Notes under the pieces: generated by a model
Told to the model about the DNA's origin: nothing
Databases searched by the model: none
The model's input: only the letters and a program-made list of their open reading frames with translations
Position numbers and translations under genes: made by a program
In this document: positions 12,830-15,172 of the stretch, in pieces
Layout: each line of letters starts with the position of its first letter
Numbering within the stretch: position 1 is the stretch's first letter
Assembly: GCA_031835245.2 (NCBI GenBank)
Contig: JAVKOQ020000004.1
Location: forward strand, 186,001-250,000
DNA length: 64,000 nucleotides
DNA from: Balamuthia mandrillaris
Lineage: Eukaryota
Reading direction: 5' to 3'

Positions 12830-15172
12830 TCACGTTTGTTGGGAAGCAAGGCTCTTTCGGAGTTGCATCAACAGCTTGCCGCTTTTGTTGTGCCCTTTGC
12901 CATCCAACCCATCTCCCCAGTACGTATTCCTGTTTGGGGTGTTTGCATAACTAAGAACACAAAGAGCGACAAGAGAAGGTTGACGGGAAGAGAAGAAGAC
13001 AGAGTCGAACCTTCGTCGTTCAACGATGAGACGGTCTCCGGTGCTCAACAATAGTTTTATCAGTTGAGGATTCTGTGGAACAAGCGAGTTAACAAAATAA
13101 CAAACAGCTGAACATAAACAACGACGAACCTGAGAAAACTTGGCGTTCATGCCTTGCCACATAACATCATACTTGACCTTCTCCCAGTCAGCTCGCATGG
13201 TCTTGTCCCTGCTCTGCCCCATGCGAAACGCCTTGGAGGCCGTCTCCGCATTGCGAATGGCCTCTGCATGCTCGTCGTCGCTGCCCACAAACTTTTGGCA
13301 TTGATAGTAATGAATGAGGGAGGGATAGCTGACGCCTTCGAGGGAGAATGCAAAGAGAGCATTGTGCGAGAGCGGGCCATAGGGAACGTCATCAGGGCCA
13401 CAGATGAAGATCGGCTCAAAATGGTCGCTCTCCACTTTCAAGAGAGGAGAAGAAGAAAAAGAAGACGAAGAAGAGTCGCGGTTGGAGTTGATTGACTCTT
13501 CGAGTTGAGTCAAGGCAGAAAGAGAAACGTTTGGACATCCCAAAACCTTTGCGAGAAAGAAAAGAAAATAGGTAAATAAAGAAAGAAGGCAAGAAGAGAA
13601 GAAAAAGAAACTAAGTACGGTGAGAGAACGAAGGGCAGAGAGGCGTTGTAAATGAGCAATGCCTTTATCAGTAATAAGAGGGAGTCCAGAAATGTCCAAC
13701 GTTTCTAAACGTTTGGCACAGGCGCCCTTTGCTATTGCCTCTAACGCTTTGTCGGTGAGGTATTTACATCTCGCTTGTTTTTATACAGCAATATAGAATA
13801 AGCAACGAGATGCGAGAGAGAGAGAAGCGAGAACATACCCAAGTTTAACACCTGGAGGTGATGACATCTCTTCAGCAGGTACATCATGCTTTGATCGTTA
13901 CAAACAGAGAAGCAGCCTTTGAGGTTGAGCCGTAACAAAGATGGACATTTGTTGGCTGTTATTTGTTCGCGTTAGGAGCTTCAAAAGCACAAAGAAGAGA
14001 ACATAGTAGAAGACGACAGACAATAAAACGAGAAGAGAATAGACTAGAGAGAGAAACAGAAGATAGTGCTTGCAGTTACCAACAGCACGAAACGTGGCGT
14101 CGCTGACAAATGTTTTCTCGAGGTGAAGCGTTTGCACTTGGCTCCCCAGTAGAATGTTCATGACCGCTCTGGCGGTGTTGTTCTCTTTCTTTAACAACAC
14201 TAACAACCGGCAGAGCAACGAATCATCCAAACATTCTTTGTTTGTTCGCTTGTTAGCCATAAATGAAAACCACAAGATAAAGAAGCAGAAGAAGAAGAAG
14301 AAGAAGAAGAAGAAAAAGAAGAACAAGAAGAAGAAGAAGAAGAAGAAGAAGAAGAAGAAGAAGAAGAAGAAGAAGAACAAGAAGAACAAGAAGAACAAGA
14401 AGAACAAGAAGAAGAAGAACAAGAACAAGAACAAGAAGAAGAAGCAGAAGCAGAAGAACAAGAACAAGAAGAACAAGAACAGCAAGAGCAGGAGCAAGCA
14501 GATGAAGAACAAGAGGAAGGTGTTACCTCCTAACGCCTCAAACCGTTTAATGTTGGCAGTGATGAAAGAGAGACACTGTTGAGTGAGGGAAGGCACAACG
14601 GCCGCGGTTCCTTGCGCGCCCGTCCCAAACTGTTCCAACGGTTGTGCGCCACAAGCGGACAACGGCGGTCTGTTATCCAAAGGAAAGGAGTGACCATACG
14701 TGGCTCTTATGAAGATCCTTCCGTCTAATGAACACCAACATTGTTAGCAAAGAGGAGAAAAGAGATAGGAGAGGAATGAAACATTAAGCAAGAAAGAAAC
14801 GACAAGAAAGAAAGAAAGAGGGAAAGAAAGAAAGAAAAGAAAGAATGAAAGACAGAAAGAACCGAAGGAAGTACACAAACCGTCAAATTCCTCCAACTGA
14901 AAACGTTGCTGCTCATCTCTGGTGGACTTGGAGCTGGCCACACAACAAAGCAGCTGCTCCTGCGTGACCTTCTTGAAGAGCGGCGCGGGGCAGTGCCTCC
15001 AAAGGTCGTCCAAGCAGAGCCACCCGTCCGCATAGACCTTTGCCCCTCGCGCTTCCATCATCGGCAACCCGTGACGAAGCACATAGCTCAGCTTTTTGGA
15101 GATCCGCACAAGATCGCCGGAAGACAAAGAAGAAGAGGGGGCTGAAGCGCTCGTTCCTTCGGCAGAGTCCAT
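12830..15172 (-). CDS. Fusion protein: Tpt1/KptA N-terminal (RNA) lobe + BC-box-like motif + cysteine-type LRRs + NADAR (YbiA) domain; 7 exons
   Basis: ISKKLSYVLRH...DGW...QQRFQL...IRATYGHS; VPSLTQQC; LRRs LLRLNLKGC, LQVLNLARCKYLTD, LETLDISGLPLITDKG; NADAR HYYQCQKF...RADWEKVKYDVM...KFSQNPQL..LLSTGDR.IVE...YWGDG..GKGHN. Splice phases were checked by hand and are compatible. Confidence 0.8.

What the first reader, a model, noticed from the sequence alone, without database searches (positions are those of the whole stretch)
12830..15172. Tpt1 RNA lobe - BC-box - LRR - degenerate NADAR fusion: candidate sensor coupling damaged or ADP-ribosylated RNA ends to ubiquitination
Seen: exons 15172-14881, 14724-14527, 14235-14080, 13955-13839 and three more splice in compatible phases into one ORF. 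The N-terminus has the full Tpt1/KptA RNA-lobe signature (SKKLSYVLRH, DGW, QRF, IRATYGHS). The NAD-binding lobe (HGT...R..H motifs) is absent and is replaced by VPSLTQQC plus cysteine-type LRRs, followed by a NADAR domain. Established: Tpt1 binds RNA 2'-phosphates and can ADP-ribosylate nucleic-acid ends; NADAR enzymes cleave N-glycosidic bonds (riboflavin intermediates, ADP-ribosyl-guanine); (V/P)SLxxxC followed by LRRs typifies elongin-BC/cullin adaptors. Inference: this is a non-catalytic two-headed reader of phosphorylated or ADP-ribosylated nucleic acid that recruits a cullin ligase. I know of no description of this architecture.
Basis: partly seen in the sequence, partly recalled or inferred. 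Interest (0 to 1): 0.9.

Follow-up and report, generated by a model that had tools for sequence, protein, structure and literature searches.

The report
RNA-repair lobe turned ubiquitin-ligase receptor
A spliced amoeba gene, with relatives in a single-celled cousin of animals and other eukaryotes, joins the RNA-gripping half of the RNA-repair enzyme Tpt1 to a predicted Elongin C-binding helix, leucine-rich repeats and a worn-down ADP-ribose domain, and likely marks proteins sitting on phosphate-scarred RNA for destruction.

Summary
The gene is real: eight exons (not seven) give a 498-aa protein identical to a Balamuthia mandrillaris record; RNA shows 5 of 7 introns spliced. It joins a Tpt1/KptA RNA lobe without the NAD+ lobe, a BC-box, cysteine-type LRRs and a YbiA-type NADAR. 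The same four parts occur in Capsaspora owczarzaki and two unnamed eukaryotes at about 30% identity; other relatives lack the NADAR, so the core is lobe + BC-box + LRR. The lobe keeps the phosphate-binding Ser, Arg-His, Arg and Tyr. The BC-box meets consensus in 5 of 7 lineages and is predicted to dock in the Elongin C groove (0.76, best control 0.07; may reflect likeness to solved complexes). The Cul2-box consensus fails in 7 of 7. The NADAR lost one catalytic Glu in all 5 lineages and the second in 4; the window's copy keeps the second, so it may not be dead. Best reading: an Elongin C-type ligase receptor built from a repair enzyme's binding half, like PCMTD1, likely reading 2'-phosphorylated RNA. 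Ligand, cullin and substrate are untested. Ten literature searches found no description; three Aravind-group papers were not seen.

The parts
14881..15172 (-). Exon 1 (aa 1-97): start codon and most of the Tpt1 RNA lobe (SK..S..LRH at 15100-15071; family S-x-S...RF motif at 14932-14900)
   Evidence: RNA depth and intron 1 junction
14527..14724 (-). Exon 2 (aa 98-163): end of RNA lobe (RATYGHS, 14707-14687), flexible linker, BC-box (aa 141-152, 14596-14561)
   Evidence: intron 2 junction in 4 reads and 1 contig
14080..14235 (-). Exon 3 (aa 164-215): helices in the cullin-box position (no Pro) and first LRR
   Evidence: intron 3 junction in 3 reads
13839..13955 (-). Exon 4 (aa 216-254): cysteine-type LRRs
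13619..13773 (-). Exon 5 (aa 255-306): cysteine-type LRRs
   Evidence: intron 4 junction not listed, depth steps at both borders in X21
13130..13546 (-). Exon 6 (aa 307-445): last LRR, capping helix, Ser-rich linker, first part of NADAR (I384 at the E43 position, K391 at the K50 position)
   Evidence: intron 5 junction not listed but in frame; intron 6 junction in 6 reads and 2 contigs
13011..13072 (-). Exon 7 (aa 446-465): NADAR last strand with E463 (E125 position)
   Evidence: intron 7 junction in 2 reads and 1 contig
12830..12929 (-). Exon 8 (aa 466-498 and stop): NADAR end (N467 at the D130 position, W470)

Best explanation
The protein is likely an Elongin C-binding substrate receptor of a cullin-RING ubiquitin ligase whose targeting head is the RNA-binding half of the repair enzyme Tpt1. 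Shown: one gene; the lobe keeps the nucleotide-crevice and phosphate residues but has no NAD+ lobe and no fourth catalytic Arg, so it cannot run the Tpt1 reaction on its own (follows from PMC10622864 and PMC10415124). Predicted: residues 138-170 dock in the BC-box groove of Elongin C. Inferred: the lobe grips a 2'-phosphorylated nucleotide in RNA (an unprocessed ligation junction or a nuclease-cut end), the LRR arc holds the protein bound next to it, and that protein is ubiquitinated; where present, the NADAR has mostly become an ADP-ribose-binding accessory that favours ADP-ribosylated RNA. My odds by step: Elongin C binding about 0.8, working ligase receptor about 0.65, RNA 2'-phosphate as the ligand about 0.45-0.5.
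For: Four-part architecture in 4 clusters at about 30% identity, including Capsaspora CAOG_08465. Lobe residues equivalent to Ser6, Arg14, His15 kept in 6 of 6 lineages that cover them, Arg62 and Tyr74 in 7 of 7; these contact the flipped base and the 2'- and 3'-phosphates in archaeal Tpt1 (PMC10622864, passages). Family lobes form one side of a branch (89/91, not starred) and carry an S-x-S...RF motif in 7 of 7 against 0 of 16 other lobes. BC-box consensus met at the same place in 5 of 7 lineages, the other two one residue off; chance 5-8% per protein. Complex with a stand-in Elongin C: 0.76 in three runs, best of 3 controls 0.07, runs share at least 94% of contacts, partner pLDDT 90, centred on L144 and C148 (mark reached by 51 of 78 solved and 2 of 108 mismatched pairs, in eukaryotes 39 of 65 and 2 of 126). 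NADAR keeps the pyrophosphate/adenine contacts K50, G78, W89, R/K93, W133 in 8 of 8 family rows but E43 in 0 of 9 and E125 in 3 of 9 domains (all Balamuthia), against both kept in 59 of 62 single-NADAR proteins. Precedent: PCMTD1 (PMC12590147, passages).
Against: Cul2-box consensus met in 0 of 7, and Cul2/Cul5 are argued to be animal-specific (PMC2785787, passages); no genome was held, so Elongin C and cullins of this organism were not checked. The complex score may come from likeness to solved Rad7-Elc1 and ZYG11B-EloBC, used a giant-virus Elongin C, and was not compared with Skp1. The lobe lost the Lys60 equivalent in 6 of 7 lineages, keeps Lys7 in 3 of 6 lineages, and lacks the two NAD+-lobe arginines that help hold the 2'- and 3'-phosphates, so affinity may be low or the ligand different. 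Tested NADARs are inactive on phosphate-end ADP-ribose (PMC11833690). The window's NADAR keeps E463 and K391. No substrate or ligand was tested.
Confidence: 0.48

Rival explanations
1. A small-molecule-gated ligase receptor: the lobe (with the NADAR where present) binds a soluble phospho-nucleotide such as NADP(H), 2',5'-ADP or ADP-ribose-1''-phosphate, the by-product of Tpt1, and this switches substrate binding by the LRRs.
For: Archaeal Tpt1 RNA lobes bind NADP+ and 2',5'-ADP through Ser6, Lys7, Arg14, Arg62 and Tyr74 (PMC10622864); RNA-lobe Arg/Lys/Arg hold the 1''-phosphate of ADP-ribose-1''-phosphate in TRPT1 (PMC10415124); the family keeps these Arg and Tyr and the ADP-ribose contacts of the NADAR. 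Ligand-gated LRR receptors TIR1 and COI1 share the LRR fold (their gating is recalled knowledge).
Against: The two heads lie at opposite ends of the chain and many members lack the NADAR; whether they touch was not tested (pTM 0.62). A lone lobe also occurs beside three La RNA-binding domains (P0163), which points to RNA.
Confidence: 0.2
2. An Elongin BC-bound RNA-binding scaffold that does not recruit a cullin; it shields or sorts phosphate-ended RNA rather than triggering ubiquitination.
For: Cul2-box consensus fails in 7 of 7; the predicted interface covers only Elongin C.
Against: BC-box, helical spacer and cysteine-type LRRs match the layout of Rad7 and ZYG11B (profile hit to Rad7 residues 3-106, E 0.19, weak; ZYG11B 10-246 aligned to model 136-351, Z 13.9, rmsd 3.1, 191 residues); PCMTD1 shows that cullin boxes can be displaced.
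Confidence: 0.15
3. An RNA-targeted N-glycosidase: the lobe brings a still-active NADAR to base-ADP-ribosylated RNA (antitoxin-like clean-up), the BC-box/LRR part serving turnover or scaffolding.
For: [quoted passage not shown]
Against: The other 4 of 5 lineages lack both acids and other members have no NADAR; this copy also lacks the R79 and D130 equivalents; E88 mutants failed in vivo.
Confidence: 0.12
4. Separate neighbouring genes wrongly joined.
For: Introns 4 and 5 have no listed junction and nothing spans the whole transcript.
Against: The same order occurs in an intronless ORF (L002/L003) and in Capsaspora; intron 5 is in frame; junctions link lobe, BC-box and LRR exons.
Confidence: 0.02

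Closest known systems
PCMTD1/PCMTD2 (CRL5 receptors derived from the repair methyltransferase PCMT1)
   Same: A repair enzyme's substrate-binding fold, without its activity, joined to a BC-box; reads damage and is built into a cullin-RING ligase (PMC12590147, passages).
   Different: Unrelated fold and ligand (isoaspartyl protein, not RNA phosphate); PCMTD1 has a shown CUL5 box and no LRR or NADAR. Works-like comparison only.
BC-box LRR receptors: Rad7 (Elc1), ZYG11B/ZER1, PRAME, LRR-1
   Same: BC-box, helical spacer, then LRRs; Rad7 Z 18.8, rmsd 2.2, 169 aligned; ZYG11B Z 13.9 with its N-terminal box in register.
   Different: None carries a Tpt1 lobe or NADAR; Cul2-box consensus not met here; no ARM repeats as in ZYG11/ZER1 (recalled).
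Tpt1/KptA/TRPT1 RNA 2'-phosphotransferase (PF01885)
   Same: RNA lobe with Ser, Arg-His, Arg and the archaeal/Clostridium-type Tyr; family profile hits human TRPT1 at E 5.5e-12.
   Different: NAD+ lobe and the fourth tetrad Arg are missing; family-specific S-x-S insertion before RF; the known eukaryotic fusion, fission-yeast Tpt1-Yae1, keeps the whole enzyme (PMC12810181).
YbiA-family NADAR (PF08719; E. coli YbiA 2B3W, Phytophthora NADAR 8BAU)
   Same: Same fold (Z 18.9, rmsd 2.0, 148 aligned to YbiA; Z 16.9, rmsd 2.6 to 8BAU) and ADP-ribose pyrophosphate contacts.
   Different: E43 lost in all lineages, E125 in 4 of 5; fused behind LRRs; absent from part of the family.
FBXL (F-box/LRR) receptors such as FBXL2, FBXL17, SKP2
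   Same: Best sequence and structure matches of the LRR arc (FBXL2 E 1.7e-25; Z 22.6, rmsd 1.6).
   Different: No F-box hit by Pfam at E up to 1; the adaptor motif is a BC-box.

Membership tests
Tpt1/KptA 2'-phosphotransferase | N-terminal RNA lobe with Arg-His and Arg of the tetrad | tested here: met
   R33, H34, R90; Pfam E 5.6e-11
Tpt1/KptA 2'-phosphotransferase | C-terminal NAD+ lobe with HGT motif and fourth tetrad Arg | tested here: not met
   no hit in protein, 12 family proteins or the window; control 4.6e-27
Tpt1/KptA 2'-phosphotransferase | RNA-lobe fold by structure comparison | tested here: inconclusive
   lobe modelled at pLDDT 76-93 but LRR and NADAR rows filled the fold-search lists
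BC-box (Elongin C-binding) proteins | (S,T,P)LxxxC/S/AxxxPhi BC-box | tested here: met
   residues 143-152; 5 of 7 lineages strict; consensus from PMC4878042
BC-box (Elongin C-binding) proteins | Helix fits the Elongin C groove | tested here: met
   predicted only: 0.76 against best control 0.07, L144/C148 central, stand-in Elongin C; may reflect solved look-alikes
BC-box (Elongin C-binding) proteins | Physical binding to Elongin B/C | not testable with these tools
   needs a pull-down
VHL-box (CRL2) receptors | Cul2 box PhiPxxPhixxxPhi after the BC-box | tested here: not met
   0 of 7 in the 36 residues after the BC-box
SOCS-box (CRL5) receptors | Cul5 box with Leu-Pro motif after the BC-box | tested here: inconclusive
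   no hydrophobic-Pro pair in that segment in 5 of 7, including the window's protein; a displaced box as in PCMTD1 was not searched
F-box/LRR (FBXL) proteins | F-box domain | tested here: not met
   no F-box family among 7 Pfam hits at E up to 1
YbiA-family NADAR hydrolase | YbiA fold | tested here: met
   Pfam E 4.5e-28; Z 18.9
YbiA-family NADAR hydrolase | Catalytic Lys (K50) and last-strand Glu (E125) | tested here: met
   K391 and E463 in the window's copy; E125 absent in the other 4 lineages
YbiA-family NADAR hydrolase | First catalytic Glu (E43) | tested here: not met
   I384; 0 of 9 family domains against 61 of 62 single-NADAR proteins
YbiA-family NADAR hydrolase | N-glycosidase activity | not testable with these tools
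   needs an assay

The most novel reading that the evidence does not exclude
Probability: 0.3. Interest if true: 0.9.

Novelty: new variant of a known kind. Interest (0 to 1): 0.74.

Why it matters
Why Tpt1 persists in eukaryotes that may not need it for tRNA splicing, and what RNA 2'-phosphates and RNA ADP-ribosylation signal in cells, are open questions. A conserved protein that keeps only the 2'-phosphate-binding half of Tpt1 and ties it to an Elongin C adaptor motif would be a reader of that mark with an output, and it makes the question testable in Capsaspora. It would extend the PCMTD1 design (repair enzyme recycled as a damage-reading E3 receptor) from damaged protein to damaged RNA. 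The isolated lobe could also serve as a probe for 2'-phosphorylated RNA.

Tried and rejected
Word-index homologue searches were insensitive: the window's 316-aa frame found 2 proteins of 1913 candidates, residues 15-200 found only itself among 469, and the N-terminal profile covered only 372-2000 aa, so the shorter NADAR-less members were out of range (5 hits of 7994). The family came from the exhaustive phmmer search, whose best 150 rows are crowded by single-domain hits; I scanned 16 of those 150 with Pfam, so members are likely missed. The metagenome scan gave 22 loci, 3 of them family members, 19 ordinary prokaryotic KptA or fragments of it; viral contigs gave none and the viral fold library only single-domain matches in the 50 rows shown. 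Single-sequence folding was poor (pLDDT 40.6). Fold searches did not reach the RNA lobe. NADAR trees are unresolved: the five family domains are not joined in the free tree, one origin is not rejected (p-AU 0.53), and the window's NADAR lies nearest a stand-alone Balamuthia YbiA, so replacement is possible. Run X23 gave no reads. No shared gene neighbourhood was seen in L001-L003. Four look-ups of earlier scan findings returned nothing. Rejected: that TYGHS is a decayed motif (it is the common archaeal/bacterial form); a split Tpt1 with the NAD+ lobe nearby (window only); an F-box.

Full report
Observation. On the minus strand, eight exons between 15172 and 12830 splice at GT-AG sites into one 498-aa frame. 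The product is identical to NCBI KAL6079333.1, named 'NADAR domain-containing protein [Balamuthia mandrillaris]'; a second locus record of that species carries three variants, one 97% identical and full length. RNA data list junctions for intron 1 (one contig, two reads), intron 2 (4 reads, one contig), intron 3 (3 reads), intron 6 (6 reads, two contigs) and intron 7 (2 reads, one contig); introns 4 and 5 are not listed; only 3-5% of each raw run was read, giving 43, 13 and 0 reads. A DNA-like contig covers introns 3-7 unbroken. Intron 5 is 72 nt, in frame and stop-free, so the last LRRs and the NADAR share a frame whether or not it is spliced. Nothing spans the whole transcript.

Anatomy. Pfam places PTS_2-RNA at residues 22-113, matching only positions 4-84 of the 177-position profile (E 5.6e-11), LRRs at about 195-330 and NADAR at 366-493 (E 4.5e-28). 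A profile built from 13 KptA NAD+ lobes finds nothing in the protein, in 12 of 12 family proteins or in the window's six frames, while the positive control scores 4.6e-27. An AlphaFold2 model on a 42-row alignment has mean pLDDT 88.0 and pTM 0.62, with disorder only at 1-13 and 129-139. It matches FBXL2 (Z 22.6, rmsd 1.6, 159 residues), YbiA (Z 18.9, rmsd 2.0, 148), Rad7 (Z 18.8, rmsd 2.2, 169), Phytophthora NADAR (Z 16.9, rmsd 2.6, 148) and ZYG11B residues 10-246 (Z 13.9, rmsd 3.1, 191). The lobe was not reached by these searches; its identity rests on sequence: a family profile hits human TRPT1 at E 5.5e-12 and 12 further Tpt1 sequences at E below 1e-5.

A family, not a one-off. An exhaustive phmmer search gave 22,176 hits; of the best 150 I scanned 16 with Pfam. 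Three besides the query have all four parts: Capsaspora owczarzaki CAOG_08465 (P0069) and unnamed P0009 and P0010; P0013 is a cut LRR + NADAR piece; P0032 and P0102 have lobe, BC-box and LRRs and then end; P0055 is a cut piece of that kind. Identity to the window's protein is about 20-50% by domain and near 30% overall. P0009 is encoded by an intronless frame beside eukaryotic genes. The ESM Atlas gives as first hit (0.95, 202 of 256 features) a cluster of 52 eukaryotic proteins of about 287 aa, 94% PTS_2-RNA, 40% and 21% LRR families, commonest Mollusca (again first, 0.84, for P0032). I could not see those sequences, so the reach into animals is a lead. The conserved core is lobe + BC-box + LRR; the NADAR is optional.

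RNA lobe. In archaeal Tpt1 the flipped junction base lies between Lys7 and Arg62/63, Ser6 bonds the base, and the 2'-phosphate is held by Arg14, Lys60, Arg62, Tyr74 and Arg133, the 3'-phosphate by Arg14-His15 and Arg116 (PMC10622864, passages). The family keeps Ser6, Arg14 and His15 in 6 of 6 lineages covering them and Arg62 and Tyr74 in 7 of 7; Lys7 in 3 of 6; Lys60 in 1 of 7 against 13 of 14 prokaryotic KptA lobes. In place of the Lys60 loop it has an S-x-S...RF motif, 7 of 7 against 0 of 16. The family lobes form one side of a branch (89/91, not starred; long branches; no ordinary eukaryotic TRPT1 in the set). Arg116 and Arg133 go with the missing lobe. NAD+ binding needs that lobe (PMC10415124, passages), so the Tpt1 reaction cannot be run alone; conservation of the phosphate pocket at 30% overall identity implies a kept ligand (inference).

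BC-box. The consensus from PMC4878042 (passages) is met at the same aligned place in 5 of 7 lineages, the other two differing at one position, against 5-8% by chance per shuffled protein. A complex prediction of residues 138-330 with a stand-in Elongin C from a giant-virus contig (L024; E 9e-45 to human Elongin C) scored 0.76 in three runs against a best control of 0.07; runs share at least 94% of contacts, partner pLDDT 90; alignments were not used. The mark was reached by 51 of 78 solved and 2 of 108 mismatched pairs (eukaryotes: 39 of 65 and 2 of 126). The interface centres on L144 and C148 and uses Elongin C positions 60, 63, 67, 79 and 85, five of the six named for the PCMTD1 BC-box (equal numbering is my inference). 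Like complexes are solved, so the pass shows likeness, not binding; Skp1 was not tried. Against a standard ligase: the Cul2-box consensus is met in 0 of 7, Cul2 and Cul5 are argued to be animal-specific (PMC2785787, passages), and this organism's Elongin C and cullins could not be checked.

NADAR. In Phytophthora NADAR, E43 and E125 hold the distal ribose and K50, R79, W89, R93, D130 and W133 the pyrophosphate; in the E. coli C7 enzyme loss of the E125 counterpart or the Lys abolished efficient hydrolysis, E88A (E43) had a minor effect in vitro, and all failed in vivo (PMC11543638, section 12 read whole). Mapping (a two-residue numbering offset is my inference), K50, G78, W89, R/K93 and W133 are kept in 8 of 8 family rows. 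E43 is kept in 0 of 9 family domains and E125 in 3 of 9, all Balamuthia; both are kept in 59 of 62 single-NADAR proteins; P0003 fell below the length filter. Loss of E125 is also common in tandem-NADAR proteins (36 of 59 domains), so pseudo-NADARs are not unique to this family. The window's copy is the exception that keeps E463 but loses the R79 and D130 equivalents: partly degenerate, activity unknown. Tested NADARs act on base-linked, not phosphate-linked, ADP-ribose in RNA (PMC11833690, passages); that limits what an active NADAR could do here but does not test binding. One origin of the fused NADAR is neither shown nor rejected.

Mechanism. I commit to an Elongin C-type ligase receptor whose orphan Tpt1 lobe grips a 2'-phosphorylated nucleotide in RNA and brings the ligase to the protein bound there, the NADAR acting as an optional ADP-ribose reader (0.48). 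Shown: gene, domains, residue states, family. Predicted: Elongin C docking. Inferred: ligand, cullin, substrate. Rivals: gating by a soluble phospho-nucleotide (0.2), an Elongin-bound scaffold without cullin (0.15), an RNA-targeted active glycosidase (0.12), mis-joined genes (0.02).

Comparison and novelty. It works like PCMTD1, an inactive repair-enzyme fold with a BC-box that binds damaged substrate within CRL5 (PMC12590147, passages), and is laid out like Rad7 and ZYG11B. It is not a Tpt1 enzyme, not a canonical VHL-box protein and not an FBXL protein by the tests above. Ten full-text searches (listings and abstract starts) showed no paper on this architecture; I also read parts 1-2 of 6 of PMC11125620 and passages of PMC9503650, PMC12810181 and PMC7955679. 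Burroughs and Aravind 2016 and Aravind 2015 were not held and de Souza and Aravind 2012 was not seen; these papers and their supplements could list the architecture. The database names seen call members 'NADAR domain-containing', 'hypothetical', 'ribA/ribD-fused uncharacterized' or '2'-phosphotransferase'. Verdict: real, conserved, apparently undescribed; a new variant of a known kind, with a bold but untested RNA-damage reading.

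Noticed in passing
protein P0163: A 1088-aa unnamed protein with PB1, a lone Tpt1 RNA lobe (Pfam positions 6-85 of 177, no NAD+ lobe), three La domains, an NBR1 Ig-like domain and a UBA-like end (the last by eye): an NBR1-type autophagy-receptor layout. A second, apparently independent link of an orphan Tpt1 lobe to ubiquitin machinery.
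   Followed up: partly
L024:149-436 (+): A giant-virus MAG contig encodes a near-intact Elongin C (E 9e-45 to human); the only relative found in viral contigs was itself. Could be a viral capture or host contamination.
   Followed up: partly
L023, L026, L027, L028, L030, L031: Skp1-like genes in giant-virus contigs, four of them on contigs of 1.8-2.5 Mb with apparent introns near the 3' end.
   Followed up: no
proteins P0016, P0018, P0019, P0023, P0026, P0027, P0030, P0031, P0036, P0056 and others: Tandem-NADAR proteins (named ones from a diplonemid, a fungus and a sponge) often replace the last-strand catalytic Glu by an aromatic or other residue (36 of 59 domains): a wider class of likely pseudo-NADAR readers.
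   Followed up: partly
proteins P0067, P0087: Long amoebozoan-type proteins with an OTU-like domain followed by a BC-box-like helix and many cysteine LRRs; P0067 also has a GTPase-like N-terminal part.
   Followed up: no
window 11906-12775 (-): Intronless SpoU-family RNA methylase frame (E 4.8e-20) directly downstream on the same strand; not seen beside the family gene in L001-L003.
   Followed up: partly
window 15688-16836 (-): Upstream cysteine-rich repeat frame of 383 aa with no Pfam hit at E 0.01.
   Followed up: no
window 18077-18640 (+) and 39569-41083 (+): Two F-box genes, the second with ankyrin repeats.
   Followed up: no
window 13547-13618, 13073-13129, 12930-13010 (-): Introns 5, 6 and 7 are all multiples of three and stop-free, so retention would insert residues rather than end the frame; database variants of the second locus differ at these introns.
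   Followed up: partly
protein P0038: A stand-alone Balamuthia YbiA with Gln at the last-strand Glu position is the nearest NADAR to the window's domain by tree path.
   Followed up: partly
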